A DNA stretch of 61,343 bases, counting the filler, from Bipalium vagum (lineage: Eukaryota): the NCBI GenBank assembly GCA_037834085.1. It is 3 parts of 3 records of this genome, joined end to end, with 100 filler letters (N's around TTAATTAATTAA, not from the genome) between each part and the next. Parts side by side here need not be neighbours in the genome. Positions count along the whole stretch, not along the records: positions 1 to 28,252 come from JBBMKC010060038.1; 2 more parts are not named here. One strand, written 5' to 3'. This document shows positions 22,536 through 53,486 of this stretch, piece after piece. The notes below the pieces were generated by a model. That model was given only the letters and a program-made list of their open reading frames with translations, searched no databases and was not told the origin of the DNA. Position 1 is the first letter of the stretch. Each line of letters starts with the position of its first letter. The position numbers were made by a program, and so were the translations under genes.

Positions 22536-23066
22536 TTAATCATCATAGATGGGTTCCTTATTAATACATTTTGTTAGGAATTTAAACATGTGTCTGTAAT
22601 AAGAATTACAAACATCAGCGCCTATTAAATTTATTACGTTGTCGATCAATCCAAATAAATCTTTTTCATTTTCAGGAAGAGCTTGCCTGATGCTTTGTTT
22701 CCATTTTGAGAATACGTTCTCTATAGGGTTTAGAAAAGGAGAATAAAGAGGCAAAAACCATACCCTATGACCCCCTTCTTCTACCATTTCAAGTATGCCT
22801 GTCGATTTGTGGAATGGAACATTGTCCATTATGATTATCACAGATACATGTTCTCGAATTAAATCTTTTGCTATTAATTCGGTTATAAACGTCTGAAATG
22901 TGATCGTATTATATGCAGTCGTCTGTGCATGATAATGGACAATTCCATTTTTATTCATTGCGCAACAGACGGAGATGTTACGTGACCTCAATCTCTTTCC
23001 ACATAATGATCTTCCTTTTCTTGAGCGCATGGATATATTGAAGCCTACATCATCAACGAAGAACAA
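22536..23066 (-). mobile_element. IS630/Tc1-like DD34E transposase catalytic domain (N-terminally truncated)
   Basis: ORF motifs FVDDVGFN, IIMDNVPFHKS, LPLYSPFLNPIENVFSKWK; 34 residues between the second D and the E. Confidence 0.9.
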
Positions 23067-23554
23067 TTTGGATTTATCATATAATGATAAGGTATAAGAA
23101 AAGTATGTATTTGAAATGAGATTACAAAAATTTGAAATGAGGTTATAAACCCTGTAAATATTTTAATCAATGATGAATTGTCATTTTTGTTCCAAAATCT
23201 TTGTCATTTACAGTACAATAGTTGAGATCGTAGAGGTTTTTGAAAGCTAAAGATATGCCACCATTTTTAAATACTTAGTGCTGTGACCAGCGAAAATTGA
23301 ATTCATCATAATTGATATATAGATCTTGAAGTAATTATAATTTGTATATCTCCACAAAAGTTTTTTCATTTTCAGTTTTAAAGGTTTGGCATAAAATTGA
23401 CATATTTTTATGGATTTGTTTACATCTTTCGTTCATACAAAAATTTGATGCACTGACTTTCATCGAAAAAATTGTCCTTAATTCATATATGGATGGAAAG
23501 ATCTATATTGTCTTACTTTAACATTTTTAAAAATGTTAGTTATTTCATTTAAAT

Positions 23555-24411
23555 TGTTACTGTTATACCTTAACAAGTAACTTTCGCTCGAAAATTGTTA
23601 ACTCCTTATTTTCTAATGTTGTGTTCATTTTGCTTACATAAATTTACTCTATTGAATCAAAATCCCACAATAAAACCTTATCCGCATCCTAACTCAATCA
23701 AAACATACACGGTAAAACTTTATTAAACACTTCAAAACAATCTTTACACTCATAATCAAAATTCACAATCATAATCGTTCAAACATCTAAACAGACAAGA
23801 TTGTTCAAATGTCTGAAAAATCAAAATTACGATTGTTCAACTGACTGAAAATCAAAAATCAAACACAAATAAATAATTCTAATCACCAGTTCAAAATCAA
23901 ATGATTAAAATGAAATTTAGATTAATAAAAAAATAAAAATTGAAATTATCCTCACCAAGAGCGACAGGGGGTTCATGAGTCTTTCTCTAGGTTCTTTTTA
24001 AGTCATCTAGGGATTTCTAAACTCCCTGGGTCCTCTTGATAAATCCTTTTGCATCGTCTATGGCATAATAAAGAAATATTCTCAATGGAATGACCTGGAA
24101 TGTTTGCAGTCAGATATTAACAAGTTCTGCGAGGATAAATCTTCTTTGATAGCCACAAATTTCTGTCAAAGCAAATCTTCTTTTTAAGCAACAAATCCTT
24201 TCATAAACAAATCCTTTTATTTGCCTAGGCGATTTCTGGGAATATTCGTCTCTTTATATAATCGTAGAAATATGCCTACGATCATAAATCCCTACACTTT
24301 GAGACGGCTATGTCCTTCAATAGTCCATTAATTCTAAATTTATCTTTACGCCGAGATAAAGTTAGATTAATATTCCTAAAAAATAATTCATGTTCCCGAC
24401 AAATGGACACA
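23555..24411 (-). mobile_element. LTR-like dispersed repeat B, copy 1 (probable solo LTR)
   Basis: Minus strand runs TG...gtaaCA. Homologous blocks with 48886-49712 include tataaagagacg, gacccaggga and gataaggttttat.gtgggattttgattca...aaaatgaacac.acatta. Confidence 0.6.
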
Positions 24412-24522
24412 TTTTGCCATAAAATAATTTTAATATCTCAATATATTAAAACCTCGACGGCGAGATTTTGATATATTGCTTTTTAGTATTATTTTCATTT
24501 TTGATTTTAAATTTTTAATTAA

Positions 24523-24573
<51 letters not shown>

Positions 24574-24591
24574 TACATTATTATTATTATT
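24523..24591. repeat. (TTA)n microsatellite
   Basis: Directly visible. Confidence 0.95.
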
Positions 24592-25139
24592 CAACACCTT
24601 CATATTGTGCCTTTGAAAAATCCAACAAAATATTTAATTTAAACAAACGATTTTTCAGGCACCTAAACTATAATATATAAATCCTAAAAAGATACTAAAA
24701 AGTTAAAAATTTTTAAAATGAATAAATGAAAATAATAGAAAAATATTTTGAAGTAAATAATAAATTTAAATTTCAGATATTAATACAATGTAATTATGAA
24801 AGAGATATTTCTGGATAAAAACAAGAAATAATATTTTCATATTATTCTAAACCAGAAAAAATAAATATGAAAGAAAAAAGAAATACACTTATTAAATTTA
24901 GATCAATTAAATAAGTATATAAAAGAAAAAGAATGGAATTTTTATAATATAAAATCAATTAGACTAAATATATTTAAATATTAAAGTTTAGTTGGTTCTA
25001 CATATTTTACATTACCATTTAATTCATCATGATATATTGTTGACTTAAAAATAAAGATTTAAAATGTCTGTATGTCCTTGCTTTTGATTCAGAAATGGGA
25101 GGTTTACCAAAATATCGAAAAATCTTAATTATATCAGGA

Positions 25140-26494
25140 TTATTTAATTTGTAATTTATTGTAATTTGTCAATATCGAATTTGAAATGTTTTTCGGATAA
25201 TACTAATGCTAGTTCTCTAATAATGTCATTATGTCTTTTGATTCGGCCCTCTTTGCTGCAGTGGCAAAGTACATGTGCTTGGGTTTCTGTGAATTTGCAG
25301 CCCCTCCTACATAATACATTTCCTCCTTCTAGAGCCTTATAAGGCGAATAATTCAGCTGTATTATATTATTTTGGCATTTCACGGCAAATATCCAGTCGT
25401 GGGATGACAGATTTCCATTTGTTATGATTTTATTGGATAACGGATCCATTGCAATCATTTCTCCTATTTGGCCTTGTGATTTGAGGTTGGTCCAAAGCTT
25501 GTAGTAGGCAATGCCGATTAATTCGTGTAAATAGCCGCAAATTTTAATCTTCGACAAGTAATCAAAGTAGGCAACATTTGGATTTGTGATCTCAGACTGT
25601 TTTTCAACTTCTATTCCATTTTGGCTCACGCTGGATTTGACTTGAATTTTGAATTTGCGCTTTAAATCTGTAATACTTTTTCTAATCTTCGTCCACCAGG
25701 TGGCCACGTGTTTCTCTCCATTTAGCCAGTCAAGTGCAATATGGATGTCCGTATGGTTATTGTTATTACGCATTTGAGCTGTACTGATAATTTTGGAACA
25801 GATTAGATGGCAAAGTTGGGTATCTGAGGATGTGAGCATGCAAAAGGTATGCATAACATTCTGCACCATGTAATCATCTACTGCTGCGACGATTCCTAGG
25901 CCTCCAAGCTTAGCATGAGCATTAAAAAAAAGAATTATTGAGAAGGTTGCTCGGTATGTTCAGCATAATTTTTAGCAAGTGTCGGACCTTCTTATCGTAG
26001 CCAATATTATCCTCTATTCCTACCCCTTGTATTCCATTAGGTGAGGAGAGGGTTTGTATGTTGAAAATTTTGAGCGATTGAATTTTCTGAGCTGGAGTCA
26101 GAACGCTTTTGCATATTTTGTGAAGGTTCCTAACGTTTTCTTTGAGAATCTCATTAATATTTTGACGCATGTTTTTTCCAAAGGGCATCCCGAGATATTT
26201 GTATGTATCTGCTTTTGTAATTGATGGAATAGTCACAGCTTCAATCATCAACTGGTTCTGTGGGCTAAGATTGTGGTCGTAGTAACCAAATTTATTTGGC
26301 CGAAATTGCAGTCCAGCCCATTCTGTAAGCTTCTCAACTTTCAACAAGGTTTCCTGAATGTTTTCAAAAGTTTTTCCTAATAATACGATGTCATCAGCAT
26401 ATGCTAGTGATGATATATTCATTCCGTGTAAGTCATATCCCTCACCAATTTGTTCAATTTCTCGAAAGATAAAGTAGACTGCCAGACACACCAA
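25140..26494 (-). mobile_element. Non-LTR retrotransposon fragment, RLE-endonuclease group (R2/NeSL/Utopia-like): RT C-half, thumb and CCHC knuckle
   Basis: ISSLAYADDIVLL, YKYLGMPF, LTPAQK; frameshift near 25920; then AKLGGLGI, LCRRGCKFTETQAHVLCHC and RHNDIIRELA. Truncated at both ends. Confidence 0.9.
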
Positions 26495-26559
26495 ATTTTA
26501 ACTATGAATTAGCTTTAATATATTTTTCAACTTTTAATTCTATTTTTAATATTACTAAA

Positions 26560-27131
26560 AAATTAATAGAATAGATGTAACTGTTACAGATTCAAAATGA
26601 AAAAAGGAGTCTCGATAGATAAAGATAAATCCAGGAACATGTGAAATTTCTGATATATCTGAATATATTGAGAATGGATTTAAAGTATAAAATAATTAGA
26701 ACCCTTAAAACCAGAAGAGTATTGTGTAAATATTAATGATAATCCAATGTCTTCAAACTGTGTAATAAAAGTATCTAAAGTTTGTATTCTTTCTTTTCCA
26801 GAAAATTCAATAGGTGAGATGTTAGAATTTGAAAAAAAATCTTATAAAGAAGGTTATTATGAATGAAAACTAGTTAAAATTTCATAGATAAATAAAATCA
26901 TGATTGATTATAATATTATTGAAGGAGAATTTTATAATGGTAGAAAAAATATTTTTGACATTCCTTCGAAAATTGTTCCAAGAAGTTAAAGAATCATTGA
27001 TCCTCAATTTATTGTCCTTTAATTACAAAAATATTAATGAAATAAAATTTAAGATATTTGATATTAACAAAGAATTAGTAAATTTTAATGGAGAAGAAAC
27101 AAGTTTCACTATGTATTTGAAATAAGTTTGA
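26560..27131 (+). pseudogene. Polinton/adintovirus-like minor capsid (penton) remnant
   Basis: The C-terminal NINEIKFKIFDINKELVNFNGEETSFTMYLK resembles the I..I.I.I.D.....V.FNGE.....L.LK ending of Polinton penton proteins. It is convergent with pPolB and has frameshifts. Confidence 0.55.
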
Positions 27132-27139
27132 TTTAAAAA

Positions 27140-28050
27140 GACTAGAAATTTAATTACATGATTTGTTTTCTTAATTATTTCTCCGATTAAAGCATTTTCA
27201 TAATCATTTAAATCGGTTTTAACCTTTTTATTTATTAATTCCATTCTTTTATCAAATATTAATAATATTTCTTTAGTCTTATTATCTATTACTTCATAGG
27301 TATAAGATTTAGATTTCAAAAAATAGGCTATCTTTAAATGTCTCATTTGGTTTCTCATCTTTAAACTGAAATAATTCTTCTCCTAAGTAATTTGACAGTT
27401 TATTTTCTATATTATTAAAAGTTTCATTTTTATCTAATAGAAATTTAATAAATAAAGAATCTATATCACCAAAATAAATTTTATATTTTCCAGATAATTC
27501 TTTTTCTAAACAATTATAAACAAAATCATACATTATTAATTTAAATTATTCTAAGACAAAAAATCCTACATAATTAAATTTATCAAACATTATATTACAT
27601 TTTTTTCATGTGACATGCAACAATATTTTCAGAAAATATTTTGATCTTTCAAATGTTAATTTAGAAGCACATAATTCAAATTTTTTATAATCAATAACTA
27701 TTTCCATGTTTTGTCTTTTCCTAATATTTTCTAATGTTTTTCCATATTAATATTTAATAATTTGAAAAGGAGATCTCCAACGATCTCTTTTAATTTCTTT
27801 TGTTTTATTTATATTAAATTCAATAAATGGTTTTAACCAATAAGATGCTTTAAATTAATTTAATTAAGTTAATTTTTATGCACCATTTATAATATAATCC
27901 CTTGATCTACATAAAAAAAAACTACCTTCTACTAAATAATTATTTTATCAAATTGTGTAAGCATTAATTTCTCATTAAATGTATTTAAAGTTTTATTATT
28001 AATTTGAGCAGTGTTTTTTTCTGCAATCGGACAAAATCTCTGATAATTAG
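27140..28050 (-). pseudogene. Protein-primed family B DNA polymerase remnant (Polinton/Maverick/adintovirus type)
   Basis: Minus strand: WLKPFIEFNI, YGKTLENIRKRQN, YVGFFVLE..KLIMYDFVYN, YFGDIDSLFI (YxDTDS motif), FKDE, LKSKSY. Multiple stops and frameshifts. Confidence 0.85.
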
Positions 28051-28143
28051 ATAAAAAAAGAATTATTAACTTAAAATTTTTCTGGACATAAGGGAAATTA
28101 TATTTATTTTCTCTTTTATTTCAGATGGATATTCTTAATCAAT

Positions 28144-28241
28144 TGTTAAGATCCTAAGTTGATGGATAAAAAGGATTTTAAAGGTCGGAGCGTGTATGTG
28201 GCTTAGGTCTCAACGGTTGAAGGTTGCTTTGATCGTGTTCG
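28144..28241 (-). repeat. Dispersed repeat A, copy 1 (about 100 bp visible; possible LTR 3' end)
   Basis: Reverse complement of 45756-45853 (aaagcaaccttcaaccgttgagacctaa...tccatcaacttaggatcttaaca). Homology stops at the same ...ttAACA in both copies. Confidence 0.85.
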
Positions 28242-28252
28242 TCTTTAATTAA

Positions 28253-33780: not shown

Positions 33781-34700
33781 TTGTGATGCAAAAGTTCGTA
33801 CTCAAAAAATCTTATAAAGAAGTTTTATATTCTAAAAAAGGTTTTATCGTTATTTGCAAAATTTAAGTTACCTTTTATTTAAGTTTATTTGAGTAGAAAT
33901 TTATCATTTGTTTAACTATTAAAATATTGACTCTAAGTTTTTTGAGTTTCAATAAACAATTTTACAAATCTGTGATTAAAATGCTTTCTACAAAATTTGA
34001 GATAAGAGTGTTGTTGCGTCACTATTTAAAAAGAGATTTGAGCACAATGGATGCTTGCAAGGAGTTATGCGAGTTTGAGGGCGAAGGAAATGTTGCTCAG
34101 AGGATTGCAACAAAGTTTTTCAATAGCATCAATGATGAATTTGAACTTTAAAGACAAGCCACGTTTACATCAATCTTCACTGATGAGGGATGATGAATTG
34201 ATTGCCACCTTGAAAGTTCATGCGATTAACTGTGCGATTATACTGGTGTACATCAAACAAATGTCCTGAGACATTTACATCAACTATATTGTATTCACTA
34301 AAATACACGACAAATCCATACTTCATAAGTAAAGAGCAAGCGAAGAACAGAGTTGATATGTGCAAAAAACTGCTTGAGAACCCGCAAGATGAGGACTTTT
34401 GGAGGCGTATTGTGACATCAGATGAAAATTGGATATACTTAGTCAACCATAACCGATAAAAATGTGGGGTTCCAAGAGATCAATATCCATTTTCAGTCGC
34501 CTGTCAATGCAGGTCTTCCAGGAAGGTCTTGCTGTGTGTTTGGTAGAATTTTGAATGTACTCTTCATTATGAACTGGTTCCAAATGGTAAAGCCATAAAT
34601 ACAGAGCTTTATTGCCAGCAACGTGATTTTGTTTATGATGCACTTAAGCTGAAATATCTTGTTCTTCTTCGTCAAAAGCGAGCATTGTTTCACCAAAATT
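33781..34700 (+). mobile_element. Degenerate mariner, 3' truncated
   Basis: MLSTKFEIRVLLRHYLKR...ACKELCEFEGEGNV (mariner HTH), RVDMCKKLL, DFWRRIVTSDENWIY; TIR-like ttgtgatgcaaaagttcgtactc after TA. Confidence 0.9.
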
Positions 34701-37700
34701 GTTTCTACAAAATCTCCTTTACCTCAACACATTTATTTCAACATTTTCCAAGCAATTTGATAACTTTGTTTTAATGACTCTCACTAAAGCTTGCAAAATA
34801 AGTATGTAAAATATCATTTATTTTTTTGATTGTCACTAAAACGCTTTGCAGATAGGAATTTTTGAGACTTTGGAAAAGAAAGAAGCCTGATAGAGCTAAG
34901 TTTTTGAATTAGATAGAATTGCAAGGAAGTCATAATTCAATTCATTTAATTTTGATATGGTCAAAAGCTTTTGTTAAAATTATTCTTGAGAAGAACTTTG
35001 CCATGTTATTCGGAATATAAATTTTCTTAAATTTTTATTCTGAGCTTTAACATAATTTTCAAAAAAATGGCTCAGTAAGGATTGGCTATAATTAGTAAGA
35101 TTAGTTTTAAATAGTCAGAAGGCTCAATTCGAGAAATTGGGTGGTATACGTCTACTGCTCTGTATAAACTTTTATTTGTGCTTGCTTTAAGTTATTCAAA
35201 AAATAATGAAGAAAGAATCGATAAAAGATAAGGAATTATATTATTTTAGAAACATCTAATCGATTTCCTAAAATCAGTGTTAATTAATTAATTAATTAAT
35301 TGGTAATAAAAGGAAATACTTTTCATCATTTTCTTTAGAATGCCTTACTCATTTTTAAATGTCCTCTTGGACACTACACCTTGATTGTTTCTAAGCCACA
35401 AAATATAAATTTTAAGACCAGGACCTCTTCGGTTATCATAAAACCAATATAAACCTATCTGTGAGTATAACTCATAGGTAGTTAGGTCAGTAAAAGCAAC
35501 AACTTACAATATTACTTTTTATGTATAGCCATGAATGAAATATGGACCTATTATTATGATTCTGAATTGCCAGAGGAACGATTACAATAAATCAAGATGG
35601 TTACCCTCGAAAAAAAACTATTTAGTACATAAGATAGGCAGAAGTTACATTTAATTTTATACTTTAATTAGACTAATACTGCACCTATGATTACTAGATC
35701 AATATTAAAACAGGGCCAATTGAAACAAAACCGAAATTAATAGTTGAAACTCATTAATAATAATATTCTTATTTTTTTTAACATGATTCATTTAGAGTTA
35801 TTATTTTATATCATTTTAATTATACTGGATTAATATTATCATTATGATTATATATTATAAGGATTTTTATCAAAAAGTGAAACACGTCAATAGTTTTCAG
35901 AGCATGGGAATCGTCAAATAATTTTTCTGGATAAAAGTTCTGACCAATGAGAATTGGATGAAGACAATTCTTTGGAGACTGAACTGATCAATGTCAAACC
36001 TTTCCACTTTTCATCTGCAATGCCCTCCATGTCTAGCTGGAGAGTCTGTGGTTCCATGGATTTTTGAAAATATTAATTAATTGTGGCCTCCATGCATTTT
36101 TCGACTGGATTTGTTTATTTTTCCTTCATTTCCATATTTGCTGGTAAGATTTTGCTGACCGTAATTTATTCAATAATTCTTAAATATTATAAAAATATTA
36201 TTAATTATAATATATAATATTTTTTAAAAATCTAATTGATGTTTTTTTAAAAGTTAAGGATATTTTTTGAAAGGCTGTTTTATTTGCACATTTAAAATAA
36301 TAAAATAATAATAATAATAAAATTTTTCATGTAACAGGTTATTTTAAATCATTAATTGAAATTTTGTTTTAATTAATTTATCCATAATTCATTAAAATTT
36401 TTATATTAAGTATTTGTTTTAATAATTATTAAGTATTAAATTAATAATACTGATAATTTAAATAAAACACAATGTATCGAAAAATTAATGTAATTTCCAC
36501 ATTTCTATTGTTTAAAGTTATTGTTCAAAATGTTGTGGATCGCACAAAGTGAGAAAAAAAATTTTCCATATTGATTTGTTCGAGAATTTTAAATGTTAAT
36601 TTAACCAATTTTAAACCTTTTTTTAAACCTTTTTTTATAATTCATGAAGAAGCTTACATTTATAATACTTCCTCATTTGGTGAAATGTATGAAATTGATA
36701 AAGATCTTTTGAAACTTCTGCAATACTTTGACATGGCCTTCCTTCAACTCACACCACAACAATTCATGATCAAGTGAAACATATTGCTTGTCATGGTCTT
36801 AGTAAACCACCAGGATGGCTATCTCAAGTCTTCTATTGATATTTCCACCAGATTTGGAGACATTATGATCACTTTGGTATTTATAGGAATATGTATTAGG
36901 GTCATCTCTTTATCATACGTTAAGATTTGATATATTCACCTTTCAAGTAAAACAGTTAAATGGGTAAATAAATATTTCATATGATAAATAAAATCTGATA
37001 AACAAAATGACATGGTTTTCTTTAAAACATGTGCAATATTTTAATTAATAATATTTTTAATTAATAAATAATAAAACTAATAATAATTGACCAGGATAAA
37101 GCCAAAAGTTTATATTTTTCATAAATATTGCACCTGAATCCAGAATTCAATATTTTCATACAGCAAGTATTGAAAATTATTAATTAAAATGTGATCCAAA
37201 TGATTAATCAATTAATATAAAATAATAAAAAGAATTATAAATTTTTAATGAGATGGAATAGCTGTGGAAATATTTCATAAAAAATACTGAAATTCTTTTT
37301 CTGGCGAAAAAGTTTTTTAATTTTTAATTTTAAGTTATTAATTAAATGATTATAATATAAAATAATAACTGAATTAAAATAATAAAAATGTTTGAATTAA
37401 AAAAGATTAAGAATAAAATTCAAGAGAATATTAATTGAAAATGAAAAAATAAATAAAGGGTGAAAATTAATATTGGTGTGAAATAAAATTGAATATTTTG
37501 GAGAGCTCTAATTTAAAAAAAATTACTAAAATAAATAAATTAATAAAATAAAAATAATAATCATTTCAATAAATGAATAATACCAGAGAAGAGTTTATTA
37601 AATTATTTAAATAATATTAAATTTATTAAATACAAAAAACCAACCAGTTGAACTATTTCACATTTTATATTATCAATAAGAATGATTAAAAGGAAAACTT

Positions 37701-38999: not shown

Positions 39000-39763
39000 T
39001 ATAATAATTTGAGTAATTGGTGAATAAACCTTGTAAACCAATAAAAGGGTCAATTGAAATGCCAGTTGGACACCAACAGAATATCTTTATTAATGTTTAA
39101 AGGTTAATAAAAACAAAACAGAATTTATCGTAATCAGAACCATTGAATTCAACACACTTTAACCAAGAAGACAACAGTTTATTTATTTCAGTTGAGTAAA
39201 ATTGATGAACTCGTGAAAGCATCTTTTTGGCATTATGCTGATTTCTGAATTGTCTTCCCTTCAAGAAGTAATGTAAATTATTCGAAATTTATTCGATACA
39301 CCCAATTCTTCTGCAAGTTCTCGAACTGTTGTACTTTGATTGGACTCCATCAAATTCTTCAATTTTTCCTTTTCGACAATAGTCTTTCGTCCACAATCTT
39401 TGTCATCTTCAAGTGGCCTATCTCTATCGAGAGATGTTTTAAAATTCGTTTGTTTGTTTTGTCTCCAAATGTACTGTTGATGTTACGACCTTTCCTAAAT
39501 GACCCAATTTAAATTCGTATAAAGAAAGTTGTGTGTAATTATCTTTTTTAATATACTTTTTTCCATAGTAAGTTACATAAGTATTAAACAAATTTTTTAA
39601 ATTTAAATTAAAAGGTTAAATTTACACAAATGTAAAATGGAATGTACACTTTAAATTAATATGTTAATATAATAATCGCTTTAAAACAAAACATAAATCG
39701 TTAAAATAATGTCTAATGAGTGGTTATGACAAAAGACAACATTAGTTTTTTGAACAACTTAAT
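39000..39763 (-). mobile_element. Degenerate mariner fragment
   Basis: Minus strand: LEDDKDCGRKTIVEKEKLKNLMESNQSTTVRELAEELGVS, and WCPTG. Confidence 0.75.
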
Positions 39764-40550: not shown

Positions 40551-40561
40551 CCTAATAATAT

Positions 40562-41530
40562 ATGCTTTTAATGCTCTCATCTTTAGTCAATGTCTTTCAT
40601 ATGTTATTAAATCATTCAGTCACCTGTCAAAACGATCTCAGAGTCAAAGCTATGTGTACCCATTCGAAATCCACTTACATAAACCTGGCTTGTTCAAATC
40701 ATTCTCTAATTCTTCTGAAGCATGCCTTTTATGGGAAAAGTCAAATAAAAAAATGTTACCATTCAGAAAATGATTGTTATCTCATGGATTTTCAACATTA
40801 TTCCAAATGCAACAGACAGCAACACTGCCAATTCACCATTGAGCCCATAGCTCTTCCGAAATGCTCTTTTCTTAAAATGTCAAATTCCTCGGATCTGATG
40901 AGTGACTATTATCAAATGGTTTATGAATGCATTAAGAAAAACACCATTCTTAACGTTTGCGAAGAGTCCGTTACGTCGTCTCAGAATGGACTTGTTGTGT
41001 CTCCACAAACAGAAGCATTTACAAATGGCAAAAATAATAATGAAACTATTGTTTGTAAATTAACAATTGACCTTTCTCATCATCCGTACACAAATAACAA
41101 GATATCACAGAATATTATGGTCATCATTCTTGATATGAAGCTGGACTGTGAAACATCATATCTTCAAATATCAGATTTTTCAGGAAAGGTCTGGAAGAGC
41201 TGCAAGCTAACCCGACAGAGCCATGTGTTTACTTCAATCAATAACAAGCTTTTGGTCAAATATCAATTTAATCCATATTTAATGAAGGAAAATAGAGGGT
41301 TTTGGTTGAGTTATAGAGCATCCCCATTTATCATATATCCCGATGAAGATTACATTTTGAACGCCTGCAAAAAGCTTTCCCTAACAACTTTCAAATCCCA
41401 AAAGGAAAATAAAGTTATTCAAAATCATATTTATTCTTTAGAAAAAGATAAAAATATGAAAAAACTCATCGAAGTATCTAACATTAACCATAGTAAGTGG
41501 TTTAATTATTGTTACATTAGTCTGATATAG
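40562..41530 (+). CDS. Putative secreted/surface SUEL-type (Gal/Rha-binding) lectin + CUB domain protein; large exon, likely spliced near 41492
   Basis: 322-aa ORF with a hydrophobic N-terminus. SUEL-like LACSNHSLILLKHAFYGK..C....C...CNRQQHC...C...DYYQMVYEC; CUB-like C..GLVVSP...CKLTI...DMKLDCETSYLQI...VFTSINNKLLVKY...RGFWLSY. Donor gtaagt near 41492. Confidence 0.75.
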   Translation: MLLMLSSLVNVFHMLLNHSVTCQNDLRVKAMCTHSKSTYINLACSNHSLILLKHAFYGKSQIKKCYHSENDCYLMDFQHYSKCNRQQHCQFTIEPIALPKCSFLKMSNSSDLMSDYYQMVYECIKKNTILNVCEESVTSSQNGLVVSPQTEAFTNGKNNNETIVCKLTIDLSHHPYTNNKISQNIMVIILDMKLDCETSYLQISDFSGKVWKSCKLTRQSHVFTSINNKLLVKYQFNPYLMKENRGFWLSYRASPFIIYPDEDYILNACKKLSLTTFKSQKENKVIQNHIYSLEKDKNMKKLIEVSNINHSKWFNYCYISLI

Positions 41531-41639
41531 TTTTTATTTTTTAGAATTTTCTAAGTAAATAAAAAAAATTAAAAGATTAATAAATGGAATATTAAATAGA
41601 ATAAAATACTAAGTAATTTTATATAACCATCCAAGGAGA

Positions 41640-42150
41640 TTTACAGTGTTATGCAGAAATATATAGAAACAAATATATTTCATAACAAAGACACGAGTGG
41701 ATATGTACTTATAAAAACAAAACATTACGGGTCGAAATTTTTGTCTCGCCAAGGCTTTATGTTGCGAAAATAGCCACTTAAATCGATATCGTCGTGCATG
41801 GGTACTTCTGTAATCAATTCTTTTAAATGGTCCCGATCTATAATGGTTCTTATAAAGGATGACATTTGCGACTAAAAAACTCTACTATCGGGTTTAATTG
41901 AGGCGAGTATGGTCACAAAAACTTCTGATTTGGTGTAAGTTGACTCCTGTTTTATTTAAGTGAACCGGCTTACAGTTTTTAATGTACTCAATGTCCCTCG
42001 CATAAAGTTGTTTAGCCTCAATGTTTTTACTGTTATTTCTTCCCTCGGGAACTCTGACTAATCGCTTTCTGGTATAATTCATGTCACGTAAAATTCTTGA
42101 ATCAGTACTTTGGCTGACTAAAATGCGATCAAATTCATCAGAAACTATTG
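41640..42150 (-). mobile_element. IS630/Tc1-like transposase relic
   Basis: YTRKRLVRVPEGRNNSKNIEAKQLYA...VHLNKTGVNLH (degenerate FLDETGFNLH). Confidence 0.65.
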
Positions 42151-43150
42151 AATATTTTTTCTTTATATTTCTGCATAAACGTGTAGATAAATTTTATTAA
42201 TATCAAATAAATTAAGCCAGTTGTTTTAATATCCGGTTTTGTATGAATTTTAAAATTAAGTTCTTAATTAAAGTTAAATTGTGATCTACTTTCTTTCGAA
42301 TATAAACTAATTTCACCTTCAAAATTATAATCCTATTATTAAAAAAATGAATATTTATTAATTTTTTTACAAAAAATAGACCCAAATTTTCATTACAAAT
42401 GACAGATGGTGTTCAATAAGTTGAAGGAAGGTAATATAGTTCAATATTCTGGAATTCTAATCCAACAGTTATTCTCTCAAGACTGAACCAAGTTCACATA
42501 CCTGTTTACTTGTAACTAAAACAAGGTTCTTTAATAGTATCTGCCACGAAAAGTTGATATCTTTGAATAATGAGACTTAGTGGATATTTTCTGATAACTA
42601 CTCCATCAAAATGATGTTATTTGATTTAGACCTTGATTATCCAAAGGGAAATTATCTTGAATCAGAATATCAAGATTTTGCATTAAGAGGGCTAGATGGA
42701 TCAAAAATAAAATATGATATGATCTTCATTACAAGGCTTTTCACATTTATGGAAAAGAGACCTTCGGTGTCATAGGTAAGTTAAAGGTTAGTCGTCTGCT
42801 TACCATGATATCTACAGTAAATCGTGTCTGAGAAGTATTTCATGCAACAAACATCTTTATAATAATTTTAAGTAGAACAATTTGACTCTGACTTTTATGC
42901 CTCAAAAATTCTCCGTTGCTTCTTTATCAAAAACGAAATAATATAAACTGGTTAATGAATCAACTAATAGCGACTCCACCTATTCCCATTGCGGTATCCA
43001 TTTTATCAAACGAAGTACATGGTTCGTCCAAAATTGACTCTTTATTTTGGACCAAATTCCGAATTGAATTCATTCCATGAATTTTTCAAATAGTTTTATC
43101 AAAATCATTTCAAGATTTTTCTAATTTATATATCATGTTCAGTTCCAAAA

Positions 43151-43899: not shown

Positions 43900-44520
43900 A
43901 AAAAAAGTTAATTATTCAGTTAAGTTTTCATATTCTACCTTAAAATGAGAATTTTGCAAATCGAAAATCGCTATTTTTGTATTTCTCGGTAAGTTCGTGC
44001 TGTGCCCATATTTCTGCTCTGCTTGCTTTTCCAATATCATGTAAATGTCGACGAATTGTTTCTCTATCATAACTGAGTTCATTGTTTGTATCCAGAGTTT
44101 GAGGTGGATTTTCTTCCATATCATCCTTGATAGCATTCATATCTACAGTTGATGGTCTGCCAGATCTAGAGGCATCTCAAAAATCAAAATTTCCGTCTTT
44201 GAACATTTTGAAACCACCTGTCATTTCATCATACCGGAATTGTATGGATAGATTTTGTTTATTGACTTAATTGCTTCTGATACCGTTTTCCCATACCGTT
44301 TCATACTGCAAGCAATTGCGTATGTGATACTCACTTGCTTTTTTGTCTGTCATTTCTACAAATTTAATGTTTTGTATTAAATTTCTAAAATAAAAAATTA
44401 TTAATTACGTATATTTCATAAAATCGCCAAATTACAAATGATTTTAATACAGTAAAACAAATCTATATTCAAATTAATATTAAATATAAAAAACGACATT
44501 AGATTTGAGACGAACTAATA
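43900..44520 (-). mobile_element. Mariner 5' fragment
   Basis: Minus strand: FKDGNFDF..ASRSGRPSTVDMNAIKDDMEENP..ELSYDRETIRRHLHDIGKASRAEIWAQHELTE (WVPHEL motif). Confidence 0.85.
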
Positions 44521-45647: not shown

Positions 45648-45755
45648 AAATCGGTCAGAATTGTCATCACTCATTGTAATTATAATAATAATTTTGATAT
45701 TAATTCAAATAAAAGTATTAAACTGAAAATCATTTTCTTAGTTTGTTTAATTAAT

Positions 45756-45853
45756 CGAACACAACCGAAAGCAACCTTCAACCGTTGAGACCTAAATCAC
45801 ATTTGCGCTCCAACCTTTAACATCTTTCTGTCCATCAACTTAGGATCTTAACA
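45756..45853 (+). repeat. Dispersed repeat A, copy 2
   Basis: Reverse-complement homolog of 28144-28241; upstream AATAAA near 45707 and terminal AACA suggest an LTR R/U5 end. Confidence 0.85.
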
Positions 45854-45993
45854 CATATGTGCCATAATAGACCAATTCAGCAGATACATTTTTTCCACCT
45901 TAAATTTTTTTCACAACATAAAAATGTTTCTAACAATTTTTTTCCTAATATAAAAATTTCTAACAATTTTTTTTCCAATTTTATTTTTAAAAA

Positions 45994-46485
45994 ATGACAG
46001 AAGCAATAGTGGAATTCTTTTGTAAATATGGTATAAATACAACTACAAAAAATGATTTAATTAATATTGCAAAAGATTTAGATAAGCTTTTAAAAGTTTT
46101 TATGAAAGATGAAAAAATTAAATTAAAACATTTTAATTTTGATATTCCTTTAATAATTGAATGTCAAAATTTGAAAGAAGAAGAAATCTATTGGCTTGGA
46201 TATTATAATTGTGTTTATTTTGACTCTTATGGTTTACCTCCTTCTTCAAGTATGTTACTTGAAAGTACAGAAGTATTATATGAACGAACTATAGTATTTA
46301 ATAAATTAAATTTTCAAAGTGAAATGGATTTGTTGTATAGTGAACAATTAACTTTATGTGTTTTATATCAAATTTATAAAGAAGTTTCATTTTCTAATTA
46401 TTGTTCGTGTAAGCAAGATGAGAAATTTATAGAAATTCTAGAAGAGTTACAAAATGTTATTTTAGAAAAATTAAAAGAATTTTAA
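45994..46485 (+). CDS. Adenain-like (Polinton/adintovirus maturation protease) homolog, intact ORF, catalytic His and Cys substituted
   Basis: 163-aa ORF with VFMKDE, EIYWLGYY (HW to YW), YFDSYGLPP, FQ, LYSEQL (CG to SE). Confidence 0.7.
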   Translation: MTEAIVEFFCKYGINTTTKNDLINIAKDLDKLLKVFMKDEKIKLKHFNFDIPLIIECQNLKEEEIYWLGYYNCVYFDSYGLPPSSSMLLESTEVLYERTIVFNKLNFQSEMDLLYSEQLTLCVLYQIYKEVSFSNYCSCKQDEKFIEILEELQNVILEKLKEF

Positions 46486-46515
46486 ATTTTAAAAATTAAA
46501 TTTTTTTAAAGAAAA

Positions 46516-46960
46516 ATGAGTAGATTTTCAAAAATTAAAAATATAAATATACTTTTAGAATTTCTGTAAATATGGAATTAACACAACTTCAAATTTTGAT
46601 TTAATTGATATTGCTGAAAATTTAGAAATGCCTTTAAAAGTTTTAATGAAAGATGAATTTAAAGAAAAAAGAATAAAATCTGAAGTTCCATTAATTATTA
46701 TATTATATATAATATTATAATTAATTATTATCAAAATACAAATCAAAAAGGAATTCATTGGGTTGGATATTACAAAAAATTTTACTTTGATTCCTATGGT
46801 TTACCACCACTTGAAGATTTAGAGTACTGTGGACAATTATCTTTATATGTTTTATATAAACTTTTTCAGGAAAAAGTTTATATGAGGAAATTTTAGAAGA
46901 GTTGGAATATGTTATTTTTAAGAAGTTGAAACTAAAAATTAAAAATTTTAAATTAAATTT
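46516..46960 (+). pseudogene. Second, tandem adenain-like protease copy: catalytic residues retained but frameshifted and internally deleted
   Basis: CKYGINTTSNFDLIDIAENL..VLMKDE; after an AT-rich insertion, YQNTNQKGIHWVGYYKKFYFDSYGLPPLEDLEYCGQLSLYVLY...EEILEELEYVI. Confidence 0.8.
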
Positions 46961-47228
46961 AAAAAAATTCAAAATGTTTCAGACGATAACATTTTTCTTC
47001 ATCATTTTAAGTAAAAAGGAAAACATCGGAAATATCTTTTAGATTTGAGAAAATTATTGAAATAAAATTTGAAAGTGGAAAGATGATTAATTTTGAAGTT
47101 AAAGCGAAAATAGATTAAATTTCTTAAAAATCTTTTTCAATTTTATATTTTTATAATTTGGTAAAATTATTAAATCATATAGTAATTATTAAATTTTTAT
47201 AAAATTTGTTTATTGCCATTTTTACGAT

Positions 47229-47487
47229 ATATTTTTTTCTTTTTTAGTAGAAGTATACAAACAATTATTTTTAAATTTATCAACTTGTTAGTTGGGTAGT
47301 TTTTAAATCAAATAAATAAATCAAATATTTTTTTAGTATAAGTATACTAAGAAATATTTTTTAAATTGTAGAATTGTTAGGTGGGGACATTAAATGTCGC
47401 CACCTTTCATATCGTTAAATCAAATATTTTTTCTTTAGTATGCGTATACTAATAATTATTTTTTAATTTGTTAAGTTGTTAGGAGGG
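47229..47487. repeat. Three ~65-bp direct repeats, each with a palindromic core TTAGTAT-N4-ATACTAA, plus a GC-rich hairpin
   Basis: Cores at 47244 (degenerate), 47333 and 47435; each unit ends ttgttag.(t/a)ggg. Hairpin aggtggggacat-taa-atgtcgccacct at 47379-47405 (11/12 pairs). Confidence 0.8.
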
Positions 47488-47569
47488 TTACATATTTTAT
47501 TTTTTATTAAAAAATGGTAGAAAATTATTTTTGTAAATATTGTAAAAAATACATTTCAAAAAATAATAA

Positions 47570-48780
47570 ATGGAATCATGAAAAAACTGAAATACATATT
47601 CAAAATATAAGTGTAAGTAAGGAAGTAATCTAAGTAAGGAATTAAGTAATCTAAGTGATGTGAAAATAGCAGATGATAAATTAAGTATTTCAATAAATGA
47701 TTCTTTAATAAATAAATTAAACAATGAAATAAAAGAAAAAACTAATGAAAAAAATCATTATAAAAATCTTAATAAGGATAAAGATAAAAAAATTTTTCAA
47801 TTAAATAATATAATTAAAAATTTAGATGAAACTTAAATTAATATTCATGAAGAAAATTATGAAAAAATAAAATATAAATTAGAAATACAAAATTTTAAAA
47901 ATAACTATTAAGTAACTATATAAAAGAAAATACTATAAAAAGAAAAAAGAAAAAAATAAAGATAAATTAGAAAATTATTTAAATAATTATAAAAGAGAAT
48001 ATAATGATTTACAAAAAAATATGAAAATTTATCTATTAAAACTGAAAGATTAGAAAATTTATAATCTAATAAATCTATTGAAACAGAAATTAAAATATAT
48101 AATAAAGAAATTTATTATCTTAAAGGAAAATTAGATAAGACTTAAGAACTTATGAAAGTAATGAATACACATTTTAATTTTCAAAATATGAAAAAACGAT
48201 TGGTAAATTTGAAGAAAGAAAGTTTCTTAGAAATTGAAAAAAATAAAAACGGAGTTGAAAGATTACAAAATAGAATATTAAATACTCATGGACAAATTGA
48301 TAGAATAAATCAAACAGAATTTAAAGGAAAATCTATTGCACTACAAACAGAAGTTATTGGAAAAAAATTTATAAAGATATCATGAAAATAAAAAATTATT
48401 CAAAGAAAAAAATAAACATATTTAAGGGATGAAAGCAAACAATGCTCTTATGAAACAAACTTTCATAGAAAAATATAAAGAAAAAAAATTATCAAGTGAA
48501 AGAATGGAAGAAATTAATGAATTTTCATTTTGGATGATTAGGTACTATGAATTACAATTTCAGTATTATTTTGTAAATAATAAACTAATTAGAGATGATT
48601 TTAAAATAAGAGGAATAATAAAAGTTGATAATAAAGAAAAAAATATTTTTTAAACTATGATAAAAAATTTATTAATAATGTAAAAGATTATTTATATAAT
48701 AAAATTCCAAGAGATGAAATAATGAAAAATATTTTTAAAAGTTTTGCATACTTGAAAATTAATTATTTTTAAAATATTTT
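47570..48780 (+). pseudogene. Decayed K/E/N/I-rich (coiled-coil-like) intronless ORFs, probably Polinton-like cargo
   Basis: Strong A-rich strand bias and broken frames (ORFs 48152-48385, 48429-48653); same composition and strand as the protease genes; no recognisable motif. Confidence 0.4.
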
Positions 48781-48885
48781 ATTATTGCCTTTTTTATTGC
48801 TTAAATATCGGTTTTATTTCTGAAAAATTGCTATTTTTAATATCCATATGGATAAGTTATTACAGTTCCATTTTCTAAATATATT

Positions 48886-49712
48886 TGTAAACACATTTTT
48901 GACGAACGAATTAGCGTTTGCGCCGAGAGGCGTATATGGGAATGAGGGAGGAAAAAATGGGGGTACAAATGGGGTCCCCTTTGTGTTTAGATATTACAAG
49001 CCATTCTGAGTAATAGCCGTCCGGAATCGTCATTCGAACGTGGAGATTGGTGATCGTATCCAATCTCCACATCTATAAAAAGAGACGGCTATTCCTGGAA
49101 AGGGTCGCAAAAAATATTTCCAGAACAAATTCTCAAACAACGTTTAAGGAAAAGAACTTCCAAATTTCAGAAGAACAAGTTGACAGGCAATTTCAGAGGA
49201 TTTTCCAGGGGACCCGACGACGACTTCAAGACGTTCGTACTGATTCTTTTTCAAATGGATATGCTTTCGCTATTGGATTTTACAACGGGTCCCGTCGAGT
49301 TTGGATTTTTCTAGTAGACCTGAAAAGGGTCTAGTGGACGACCCAGGGACCTGTTGTATTATAGCTTCGGATGAGACTTATCCGTTTATGTTATTTTGTT
49401 TTCGTTTCCTTTACTTAATTATTATTATTGATTATTGATTTGATTATATTTTTTCTTTATTATTAACGTTGCCATTGGTCTTGATTTTGATTTGTAGTTG
49501 TTGTGTGTAAGTGAATAAAGATTTGTTTTAAGTATTTTTATTCAGTTTTTAGGGTGAGTATAAAGTATTACTGTGGAAGTTTGTATTCAGTGAGAAAGCA
49601 GATAAGGTTTTATCATGGGAATTTTGATTCATTTTGGTTTAAATTCGAAAAAATGAACACTACATTAAAGTGAGGAGTTTTCGATAGACGAGTGAAGGTA
49701 ACAATAGTAACA
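48886..49712 (+). mobile_element. LTR-like dispersed repeat B, copy 2 (probable solo LTR)
   Basis: TGtaaac...gtaaCA; TATAAAA near 49074; AATAAA near 49514; flanks atatt/atata (possible 5-bp TSD with one mismatch); homologous to 23555-24411. Confidence 0.65.
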
Positions 49713-50820
49713 ATATAGTTAAGATAAATTGAAAAAATATGAAACAATGCGGTGGTTATAATAATATGACGCATACTATACGCTTAAAAGAGAAAAGTGT
49801 CAAGAAGGAAAATCATCCAAAGAATATGTTTAAATTCTATTAAAGGCTTTTGCTGGTGATAGCATCTGTAAAGCAATGGTTATTAGGGAAAGTAACAATT
49901 CTAGCTGGTTTCAAAATATAATCAAACAAAAAATTATTATAATAAATAAAATATAAATATAAATTATTATTATAAAAAAACATAGAACCATGGATAACAC
50001 CTCTCATATCTATAGATTATTTGCTGCAGTTAAATCAAGAAATGTTTCGAGAAAAGAGAAAGTTTCTATTATAATATATTTGTAATGCAAAGTGTCATCC
50101 ACCTGTATCCAACTGTATCTTGAGCTTGCAGTCTTTGGATAATGAAATCATACGTTATATGAAGACAATATATATATAATTAATGTTAATAAAAATGACC
50201 CTATCCTCGAATTTCATTGAAAATTCATCACAGTTCATTAGGAGTATTAATTTACTGGATACAATAACAATTTTAACAATTGTTTTAAAAGAAATACATA
50301 CGAGTAGTGTTGAAAATGCTTTTATAAAGCTTGAATTTCATATTTTAGAAGATAACATGAATCATCATATTTAGACGCAGAGGCCGAATATATGTTAGAA
50401 GCTGTTGATTTTGTAAACGTTTCCTTCCTCTAGAAGAAAATGCAAACGATTCTGATATCTTGATTAATTTTTCGTTTATTTAATAAAATAATTAGTATAA
50501 AGTATTGTAACTGAATATCCGGAAATTTGTGTAATCTGTAAAAATAAAATTCTTTGGTCACTTCCAATTCCGGCTTTGACACATTTCACTGTAGTGGGTA
50601 ACAATTTTTTTTATTTAATTTTAATAATCTTAGATTTAATTAATCCTAAAATATATATTGTGTTTATGTAAAATTTTTATTTTGCATATCAAAATTAATA
50701 TTTTAAATACTCTTGATTAATTAAAAAAAACCACATTTGTTTAAGCGTTTGATTCTTAATATAATTTATTTAAATTATTAAAATTGTTCTCATAATTTTT
50801 AATTTAGATAAATCTTAGTA

Positions 50821-53486
50821 ATGGATAATTTAATTCCAGTAATAAATAAATTACACGATGTATTCAGTACTATTGAAAAAGATATAATTAAATTACCTCA
50901 AATAGTAGTTATTGGTTCTCAAAGTGCAGGCAAAAGTTCTGTTTTAGAAAATATAGTAGGTCACGATTTTCTCCCTAGAGGCTCAGGAATTGTTACTCGA
51001 TGTCCAATAGTTCTGCAACTTATATTTACTCCAATCACTAATGAAAATTCACCAAATCCTTATGGGAAATTTTTACATACTAAGGATAAAGTTTTTGTTG
51101 ATTTCAATGAGATTAGAGAAGAGATAGAAAGAAAAACAGAAGAAATAGCTGGAAGTGGAAAAGTAAGAAAAGTATTGAAGTTTTTATGTGTAATATTTTA
51201 TTCAGTGTGTAGTTGATGAACCAATAAATCTTAAAATATACAGTTCTCAAGTACTAAATCTGACTTTGGTAGATTTACCGGGTATGACAAAAATTCCTAT
51301 ACAAGATCAGCCTGAAGATATTGAAGAACAAATTCGGAGTTTATGTATCAAATATGCTAAACAACCGAATTCAATTCTTTTATCTATTTCAAGTGCAAAT
51401 AATGATTTGGCGAACAGTGAATCACTAAAATTGGCAATGCATTTAGATCCAGAAGGTAATTTTATTTCCATTTTCTTATAGTATTCGAAATGCTGTCAAT
51501 GGCCAATTTTAACCTGCTAAGTTAATCTCTACATAACAATTTAACAAAAGGTGTAACTGATAGTCCGTTTAAGCAATATACCACCAATAATTCTTAATAA
51601 TCGCATTTTAATCTGAAAAGACAAAGATATTCTACTGTATGTTAATATGAAATAAGAGATCAATAATTTATTTGGTATACAATTTGATAAATAACTTTAT
51701 TTTCACTTAATTTAATTTTCTATTAATTGAGTTGGCTTTCTTTTATTAAATAATAAATAGGTTCATTAAAAAAATTATTCTATATTAATAATAAATATTG
51801 ATGTAAATTGATGTTTAGGCATGAGGACGTTTTGCATCCTGACAAAATTGGATTTAATGGATGATGGAACAGATGCGAAAGACATTCTTTCTGGATACAC
51901 GAATATAAAAAATTTCAAATTGGGAGTGATTGGTGTAGTCAATCGATCTCAGGCCGATCTTAACAATCGCAAATCAATTGCCGACGCATTAGAGAGTGAG
52001 GCTCAGTTCTTCAGAAAGCACTATCCCTCATTGGCCAATCAGAACGGCACACCATATTTGGCCAAGAGATTGAACGAGGTAATTTTCGATTTTACAAAAC
52101 CTTTCGTTTTGACTTTTCGTTCCAGCTGCTTATGAAACACATAAAAGCATCTCTACCAAATTTGAAAACGGAAATAAACATTCGGATTAAGCAATGCACA
52201 ACGGAGCTGCAAGCCTATGGAAACGAAGTAAAAAACAAGGTAAGCGAAAGTTGGTCGAGTTCCTCTCGTTATTTTTGTATTTATTTTCGCAGAAAGAGCT
52301 TCTAATGGAAATGATCAATCATTTCAATACCGCATATTGCAACGCCATTGACGGAAACTCTCGCAATATCAATACGGCAGAACTTTGTGGTGGTGCTCGG
52401 ATCGGTTACATATTTTATTCCATGTTTCACAAAACGATCGATGAAATCGATTCACTGGGAAATTTGAAACCAAAAGCTATTTTGACTGCCATCCAGAATG
52501 CCAGCGGTCCTCGTTCATCGCTTTTCGTTCCGGAATTGACATTTGAGCTATTGGTCAAAAATCAAATTTCTCGATTAGAAGAACCGAGTCTGATATGTAT
52601 TGATCTAGTGTTGGACGAAATGCAGAGAATCATTCAGAACTGCGGCACGCACGTATGAATTTGTTTTTGATGCATCACCATAAAAATGTTATTATCGATT
52701 ATGATTGATTTTTATTTAGAGGGAAATGGAAAGGTTTCCAAGGCTTAGTGAAAGAATTATCAACGTCGTCACGAATCTGTTGCGACAACGTCACGAGCCT
52801 ACCAACGAAATGGTGTCCAGTCTCATTCAAATCGAGTTGGCATTTATCAACAATCGTCATCCAGATTTCGATACGTCTGGTGCTTACGGAAAATCAATGG
52901 ACCATCAAATATCGAAGCATAATCACAACAAAAAAATGACCGTCAGTGAAATGTCTATAATAGACGTAAGAGATTGGGCTCTGTTAAAAATTATTGATTT
53001 TTTGTTGTTTTTCCAATTCAGGATGACTCCTCTATCAGACGCTATGAGAACATGAACGAAAAAGATATTCGAGACTGTAAATTGATAGGTTTGTTTTTTT
53101 TGTGTGAAGTTGTATTGATTTCAATTCACTCTATTTATCAATCACATCAATAGAGAATCTAATCAAGAGTTATTTCGATTTGGTACGAAAAACCATCAAG
53201 GACTTGGTTCCGAAGACAATCATGTGCTTTCTGGTGAACTATATCAAGGAAAATTTGCAAGGAAAATTAGTTCTGGAGATTCTCCGCGATGATAATGTCG
53301 ATTATCTATTGGAAGAGAACGCTGATTTTGCGCAGCGTCGCAAGGAGCTTAAGCAATTATTAGAGGTTTGTTTTTTTGAAATCCTATTCCACCGGGAAAT
53401 TATTCTTTTATTTGTATTTTGTCGTTTAGAGTCTACGTAAGGCCAATTGTATTATTAGTGAAATCCGAGAGACACAGGTGCGCTGA
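50821..53486 (+). CDS. DNM1L: Dynamin-related protein 1 (mitochondrial/peroxisomal fission GTPase), 9 exons, 635 aa
   Basis: Exons 50821-51162, 51206-51455, 51819-52078, 52126-52239, 52293-52652, 52720-52965, 53022-53088, 53154-53365, 53430-53486 sum to 1908 nt. Motifs [44 protein letters not shown] ending [11 protein letters not shown]. No PH or proline-rich domain. Confidence 0.95.

What the first reader, a model, noticed from the sequence alone, without database searches (positions are those of the whole stretch)
23555..28241. Two separate Polinton-like remnants share the same bracket: repeat A, then 3-3.7 kb viral cargo, then LTR-like repeat B
Seen: contig 1 read on minus is A (28241-28144), pPolB, penton-like gene, RLE fragment, AT-rich DNA, B (24411-23555). 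Contig 3 read on plus is A (45756-45853), two proteases, palindromic array, coiled-coil ORFs, B (48886-49712). Order and relative orientation are the same, while the cargos are non-overlapping parts of a Polinton gene set. Inference: either a composite element that mobilises Polinton segments (a segmented endogenous virus or LTR-mediated capture), or LTR families that target Polinton DNA, or chance in TE-dense regions. The two B copies are visibly diverged, which argues against a simple recent duplication.
Basis: partly seen in the sequence, partly recalled or inferred. Interest (0 to 1): 0.7.

Follow-up and report, generated by a model that had tools for sequence, protein, structure and literature searches.

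The report
Repeats piled into dead Polinton fossils
Two broken virus-like transposons (Polintons) in a likely flatworm genome each lie between the same two kinds of repeat, but the repeats likely arrived separately rather than forming one mobile unit, so this is mostly an ordinary pile-up, with a weak hint that one repeat may prefer to land in Polintons.

Summary
The arrangement is real. The A copies are 85% alike over 110 nt and share a sharp end. The B copies are homologous (score 251, shuffles 81±11) but only 68% alike. Both cargos are decayed Polinton DNA. One correction: the 'AT-rich DNA' in contig 1 is a polymerase N-terminal remnant on the strand opposite the C-terminal piece.

A..B is not a unit. 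A1 cuts the polymerase mid-gene. In a public run of this or a close genome, A depth is 39,000-174,000 against 370-620 beside it; A ends join protease copies at other sites, once in reverse; and two contigs carry A3's flank without A. B has LTR-like signals but no exact target duplication.

Best reading: independent LTR-like insertions into decaying Polintons, with contigs breaking at A. Still open: A-to-protease joints (1 firm, 4 listed) exceed a rough random expectation of about 0.3, so A may prefer Polintons; and B may be a decayed Polinton end. No genome was held for the decisive count. The scan has noted Polinton pile-ups in other genomes, not this pair.

The parts
28144..28252 (-). Repeat A, copy 1: 3' end of a high-copy LTR-like repeat, cut by the contig end
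   Evidence: the polymerase match begins right after its end
27312..28143 (-). Polinton protein-primed DNA polymerase, C-terminal part, with stops and frameshifts
26540..27140 (+). Decayed reading frame, penton-like by recalled motif only
   Evidence: sequence; no useful database hit
25040..26500 (-). 5'-truncated non-LTR retrotransposon (RT, then zinc-knuckle and RLE-type tail; tail labels recalled)
   Evidence: RVT_1 E 3.6e-7; GC 0.37
24688..25040 (+).
   Evidence: profile of 37 natural polymerases: E 5e-4; 15.3 bits, 0 of 300 shuffles
24520..24591 (.). (AAT)n microsatellite between the polymerase remnant and B1
   Evidence: sequence
23555..24411 (-). Repeat B, copy 1: LTR-like (TATA-like box, AATAAA 170 nt from the end, CA end); 5' boundary uncertain
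22539..23162 (-). Tc1/IS630-type transposase fragment outside B1
   Evidence: DDE_3 E 3e-25
45648..45853 (+). Repeat A, copy 3: 206 nt from the contig start, AATAAA 146 nt before the end
   Evidence: depth 39,000-174,000 in run X1
45994..46485 (+). Protease-like ORF 1, open but with catalytic motifs not intact
   Evidence: 51-52% to P0123/P0124
46562..46881 (+). Protease-like remnant 2, frameshifted, with an internal deletion
   Evidence: 57-86% to P0123/P0124; depth up to 44,000 in X1
47236..47488 (.). Three related units (62-nt core, spaced 89 and 102 nt) that fold into a long hairpin
47514..48770 (+). Zinc-finger start plus decayed lysine-rich coiled-coil frames; assigned to the Polinton by context only
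   Evidence: zf-U1 E 2e-4; GC 0.16
48886..49712 (+). Repeat B, copy 3: TG..CA, TATA-like box, AATAAA; 5-nt flanks match at 4 of 5 bases, no exact duplication
50812..53440 (+). Host dynamin-1-like gene (context; shows an animal host, best named hits flatworms)

Best explanation
Two decayed Polinton remnants each lie between repeat A and repeat B, and these repeats are likely LTR-type retrotransposon ends that inserted independently, so the A..B bracket is likely not a mobile unit. Shown: A is a very deep repeat whose end abuts Polinton DNA at different sites, including mid-polymerase, and both contigs stop inside it. Inferred: A is the 3' end of a younger LTR family; assemblies break in it, which leaves 'A, then Polinton' at contig ends. 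Inferred: B1 and B3 are older LTR relics of two related subfamilies at the edge of each remnant; recombination between LTRs could have removed the rest of the Polinton and the target duplication. Inferred: contig 1 was rearranged at the LINE insertion (an inversion, or two Polinton copies). The shared orientation has a prior of about 1 in 2 for independent insertions. Any excess of A in Polinton DNA would come from passive causes: abundant Polinton DNA, survival in junk, and copying along with the Polinton.
For: The polymerase match starts at A1's last base, around residue 406 of 777 in P0275. Run X1: A bins 38,827-173,878 against 618 and 374 in the next two bins, while most listed single contigs sit at 22-27; protease 2 reaches 43,804. 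Of 15 joints shown (21 kept), 4 start at A's end and go to four different protease positions; the one with 39 letters on its short side is in the opposite orientation. Two contigs carry A3's flank with non-A DNA before it (1 of 6 loose-end rows shown, of 313). A and B differ in divergence (85% against 68%). A and B show no convincing similarity (best of 8 tests: 6 of 200 shuffles). Flanks of A and of B are unrelated. The cargo is non-colinear and interrupted by a LINE. Retrotransposons nested in Polinton-like elements are described (PMC12220804, PMC8547959; passages).
Against: The same model expects 0.27 (0.07-1.1) A-to-protease joints: P is 0.28 for 1 or more, 0.07 for 2 or more, 0.006 for 4 or more. 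Both B copies sit at the Polinton edge and face outward, which random solo LTRs need not do. Neither B has an exact target duplication, primer site or polypurine tract. No internal gag or pol is linked to A or B, so the LTR label is inferred. B's copy number was not measured. Summed contig depth is not a copy number, X1 may be the window's own source, and 3 of the 4 joints have under 30 letters on the short side, which the tool flags as often false.
Confidence: 0.52

Rival explanations
1. A is the end of a retrotransposon that truly prefers Polinton DNA as its target, a hyperparasite like the Ngaro elements in Cafeteria virophages; B is incidental. (Compatible with the next rival.)
For: 2 of 2 A ends in the window are in Polinton DNA. 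4 of 15 joints shown link A's end to protease copies; one lands at the first codon of the conserved FDSYG motif (46219), and one has depth 173, about 8 times a single contig, as if copied along with its host. The rough model expects 2.5 joints if 10% of A insertions were in Polintons, against 0.27 at random. Precedent: 91% of type 1 Ngaros lie in virophage elements (PMC8547959, passage).
Against: Strong targeting predicts more joints (12.6 at 50%, 22.7 at 90%), while at most 10 of the 21 kept rows could be A joints. Only 1 joint has 30 or more letters on both sides. The model's genome size and copy numbers are guesses. Passive survival in junk DNA gives the same pattern.
Confidence: 0.22
2. 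B is a decayed terminal inverted repeat of the Polintons themselves. The B half of the bracket would then be the natural end of each element, the two cargos would be opposite ends of related Polintons, and only A is an insertion.
For: Both B copies lie where very AT-rich Polinton DNA (GC 0.11-0.23) gives way to unrecognised DNA (GC about 0.23-0.28), with the best-conserved end outward. B1 lies where the polymerase start would extrapolate to (profile position 87 at 24688). Vertebrate Maverick terminal repeats span 46-1447 bp and the polymerase module reads inward (PMC8097293, section 7). There is no exact target duplication around either B.
Against: None of the three published Maverick end motifs occurs at either outer end (6 motifs searched within 300 nt of each copy; 1 hit, internal to B3). 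B has TG..CA ends, a homologous TATA-like box and AATAAA 170-200 nt from the end, as LTRs do.
Confidence: 0.2
3. A and B are the two ends of a composite element or virus segment that moves blocks of Polinton genes as a unit.
For: Same order, same orientation, similar spacing (3732 and 3032 nt) and non-overlapping cargo. An unchecked scan note (e1-8580994) describes a split Polinton in another flatworm genome.
Against: A cuts a gene mid-frame; A joins Polinton DNA in both orientations and is missing from same-flank contigs; A and B ages differ; A and B are not convincingly related; all recognised cargo genes are damaged, one cargo is internally rearranged and holds a LINE.
Confidence: 0.04

Closest known systems
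Retrotransposons nested in Polinton-like viruses of cryptophytes (PMC12220804, passages)
   Same: GC-richer repeats or retroelements interrupt AT-rich Polinton-type DNA, in genes and between them.
   Different: Here the host is an animal, the Polintons are decayed, and only terminal repeats are seen, with no linked reverse transcriptase.
Ngaro retrotransposons and solo AB repeats in Cafeteria endogenous virophages (PMC8547959, passages)
   Same: A retroelement repeat found more than once inside a polymerase-bearing virus-like element, including in the polymerase gene.
   Different: Ngaro is a tyrosine-recombinase element with a measured preference (91% for type 1). A looks like an integrase-type LTR end, and its preference is not established.
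Polintons/Mavericks (PMC8097293 section 7 and passages; present in planarians, PMC8532177 passages)
   Same: Protein-primed polymerase and adenovirus-type protease; most genomic copies are degraded fossils.
   Different: No integrase, ATPase, major capsid gene, terminal repeat or 6-bp duplication was recognised in these fragments; the gene order differs from vertebrate Mavericks.
Solo LTRs (PMC8969392, passage)
   Same: TG..CA ends, about 830-860 nt, no coding sequence.
   Different: The intact 4-6 bp target duplication expected of a simple solo LTR is absent.

Membership tests
Polinton/Maverick (cargo) | Protein-primed family B polymerase | tested here: met
   P0125 carries PF03175, 58-60% identity; N-terminal remnant
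Polinton/Maverick (cargo) | Adenovirus-type cysteine protease | tested here: met
   Window copies 51-86% to P0123/P0124; P0124 scores 0.94-0.97 to Peptidase_C5-type clusters (family on 11-62% of members). The window's own ORF got no atlas hit.
Polinton/Maverick (cargo) | Minor capsid (penton) | tested here: inconclusive
   Motif resemblance recalled; no useful hit in Pfam, PHROGs or PDB
Polinton/Maverick (cargo) | Integrase, ATPase, major capsid protein | tested here: inconclusive
   None among the frames scanned; both contigs are cut at A
Polinton terminal repeat (B) | (AGT)2, (AG)3 or (AC)3A end motif | tested here: not met
   motifs from PMC8097293 section 7, vertebrate elements only
Polinton terminal repeat (B) | Inverted partner at the other end with 6-bp duplication | not testable with these tools
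   No genome; contigs end in A
Solo LTR (B) | TG..CA termini | tested here: met
   B3 clear; B1 3' end clear, 5' end uncertain
Solo LTR (B) | Exact 4-6 bp target duplication | tested here: not met
   None for B3 (best 4 of 5); for B1 one 4-nt AT match at other boundaries, likely chance
Solo LTR (B) | Dispersed copies, some paired around gag-pol | not testable with these tools
LTR end (A) | Sharp CA end, many copies, different flanks, empty sites | tested here: met
LTR end (A) | 5' TG end, target duplication, internal region | not testable with these tools
   Both copies are cut by contig ends
Polinton-targeting retroelement (Ngaro-like behaviour) | Significant enrichment of insertions in the virus-like element | tested here: inconclusive
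   1 firm to 4 listed joints against 0.27 expected
Composite or segmented element | Fixed junctions and orientation of the bracket to the cargo | tested here: not met
   Different sites, both orientations, A-less copies
Helenus-type tRNA-bearing LTR | tRNA-like sequence in the repeat | tested here: not met
   0 tRNAs; 0 Rfam hits at gathering score; only 2 sub-threshold snoRNA hits over B3

The most novel reading that the evidence does not exclude
Repeat A belongs to an LTR retrotransposon of a flatworm-like animal that preferentially inserts into Polintons and is sometimes copied along with them: a retrotransposon parasitising a virus-like transposon in an animal. Such a preference is measured in the protist Cafeteria; no animal case appeared in my eight search listings.
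Probability: 0.2. Interest if true: 0.6.

Novelty: new member of a known kind. Interest (0 to 1): 0.2.

Why it matters
As an ordinary pile-up it matters little, beyond showing that Polinton DNA is abundant in this animal and that contig breaks at a high-copy repeat can mimic a bracketed element. If A does target Polintons, it would be an animal counterpart of the Ngaro-virophage hyperparasitism. It would then offer a test of whether retrotransposons disable or hitchhike on endogenous DNA viruses.

Tried and rejected
Genome-wide count: impossible, no genome is held.

Collections: the A end pattern gave 1 match in metagenome contigs, L001, which shares only the 20-mer and sits in an unrelated tandem array; rejected as chance. 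A and B patterns gave 0 matches in viral contigs. Related loci for P0125, P0124 and P0126 in viral contigs: 0 confirmed. No RNA holder was listed.

One bin there has no cover, where the tool skipped repeats; that is no finding.

Ideas dropped: A related to B. B extending into shared outer flanks. B3's outer flank being a Tc1 transposase like the one beyond B1 (best of 6 frames: 29 of 300 shuffles as high). A conserved RNA structure in B (weak folding term, 2 sequences). tRNA or ribozyme in A or B. A encoding part of the polymerase (the match inside A is weak and gapped). The gag-like remnant at 59991-60293 is not linked to A or B by DNA similarity.

Earlier-findings look-ups by sequence found nothing relevant, nor did one by words. 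No supplements were read; the per-element table of PMC8547959 could bear on the comparison.
Full report
Setting. The window is three contigs joined by N-linkers, mostly 20-30% GC. A dynamin-1-like gene has its best named hits in flatworms at 63-64% identity; earlier scan notes call the genome planarian (unchecked).

A1 and A3 are 85.5% identical over 110 nt and end at the same base, with unrelated DNA beyond. B1 and B3 are homologous: local score 251 against 81±11 in 100 shuffles, and each third beats all 200 shuffles. They are distant, though: 517 of 758 aligned columns match. The cargos are Polinton-type. The polymerase C-part is 58-60% identical to P0125, which carries PF03175. Both protease remnants match P0123 and P0124, and P0124 falls among Peptidase_C5-type clusters. 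The hairpin array is real (z -5.4). The penton label is my recall of a motif and got no database support.

One correction. The 'AT-rich DNA' of contig 1 is a polymerase N-terminal remnant on the plus strand. A profile of 37 natural polymerases scores it at 15.3 bits, against a maximum of 4.6 in 300 shuffles. Contig 1 therefore reads: B1, microsatellite, polymerase N-part (+), LINE fragment (-), penton-like frame (+), polymerase C-part (-), A1. It also shows the cargo is not a colinear segment. An inversion breaking at the LINE, or two Polinton copies, would explain it (inference). A scan note on fold-back polymerase-only elements (e1-8073239) is another lead, untested.

What A is. The polymerase match begins at A1's last base, near residue 406 of 777 in P0275, so A1 cuts the gene. 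One public run, X1, holds 74% of the sampled words; it may be the source itself. Laid on 45648-46900, A bins have depth 38,827-173,878, the next two bins 618 and 374, and most listed single contigs 22-27. Protease 2 reaches 43,804, so Polinton DNA is also abundant. The tool warns that summed depth is no copy number. Of 15 joints shown (21 kept), 4 run from A's end to four different protease positions. One has 39 letters on its short side, is in the opposite orientation and has depth 173; the other three have 22-24 letters and are less reliable. Two contigs carry A3's flank with other DNA before it, as an empty site would (1 of 6 rows shown, of 313). With its CA end and an AATAAA 146 nt upstream, A is best read as the 3' end of an LTR family (inference). 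It accounts for 2 of the 5 true contig ends in the window.

What B is. B has TG..CA ends, a homologous TATA-like box, AATAAA 170-200 nt from the end and a best-conserved 3' end. It has no exact target duplication, primer site or polypurine tract, whereas a simple solo LTR keeps its duplication (PMC8969392, passage). Both copies sit at the edge of the very AT-rich Polinton DNA and face outward. Their outer flanks are unrelated to each other, and next to B nothing was recognised. That position fits LTR relics left by recombination. It also fits a decayed Polinton terminal repeat, whose size range covers B (PMC8097293, section 7), but none of the published end motifs is present. B's copy number was not measured.

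Is the bracket a unit? No sign of it. A joins Polinton DNA at several sites and in both orientations, and is missing from same-flank copies. A and B differ in age and are not convincingly related. The recognised cargo genes are damaged and one cargo holds a LINE. The shared orientation has a prior near one half.

Does A prefer Polintons? This is the evidence against the plain reading. A rough simulation assumed a genome of 0.4-2 Gb, 22-54 depth per copy and 250-600 visible bases per protease copy. It expects 0.27 (0.07-1.1) A-to-protease joints at random, 2.5 if 10% of A insertions were in Polintons, and 12.6 if 50% were. Seen: 1 firm, 2 credible, 4 listed, at most 10. The chance that both window A ends fall in Polinton DNA is about 5e-5 in the same model. 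That ignores hindsight selection, Polinton families under 80% identity and the survival of insertions in junk DNA. A mild excess is therefore likely, true targeting possible, and strong targeting disfavoured.

Comparison with what is known. Retrotransposons nested in Polinton-like viruses are described in cryptophytes (PMC12220804, passages). A measured preference is described for Ngaro elements in Cafeteria (PMC8547959, passages). Polintons and LTR elements are both piRNA targets in planarians (PMC8532177, passages), and Orthopolintovirales-related insertions are reported in flatworms (10.1101/2025.04.19.649669, passages). PMC10886601 was seen as abstract and outline only; A and B carry no tRNA. 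Eight searches, read as listings, showed no animal LTR element that targets Polintons; the library lacks most subscription papers and Repbase.

Verdict. A real arrangement, most likely an ordinary nested pile-up (0.52). A targeting Polintons 0.22; B as a Polinton end 0.2 (these two can both be true); composite or segmented element 0.04. Interest 0.2.

Noticed in passing
window 46562-46870: Protease remnant 2 has depth up to about 44,000 in run X1 against 22-27 for single contigs, so this Polinton family may be present in hundreds of copies or more.
   Followed up: partly
window 45994-46881: Tandem duplicated protease genes 544 nt apart; the first is an open frame whose catalytic motifs are not intact.
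   Followed up: partly
window 47236-47488: Three related units forming a long perfect-looking hairpin (z -5.4) between the proteases and the zinc-finger frame; possibly an origin, promoter array or small inserted element.
   Followed up: partly
window 47193-47224 and 48765-48796: A 32-nt motif (84% alike) follows two Polinton-like frames; possibly a viral gene-end signal.
   Followed up: no
window 24688-25040 and 27312-28143: Polymerase N- and C-parts on opposite strands around a LINE insertion: inversion, two copies or a fold-back element.
   Followed up: partly
window 59700-60293 (minus): Gag-like Gypsy remnant by recalled motif; no Pfam hit, no link to A or B.
   Followed up: partly
window 3199-3441, 33897-34771, 39264-39482, 41612-42193, 43943-44176: Several mariner/Tc1-like fragments by recalled motifs; (ATT)n microsatellites sit at 2 of the 5 contig ends.
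   Followed up: no
window 40559-41527 (plus): 323-codon frame with a weak SUEL lectin hit (E 3e-4, below cut-off), probably a host secreted protein.
   Followed up: no
run X1 against window 45648-55000: Only 74% of sampled words are held and the longest listed pieces differ from the window's cargo, so this Polinton insertion may be absent or divergent in X1. Untested.
   Followed up: no
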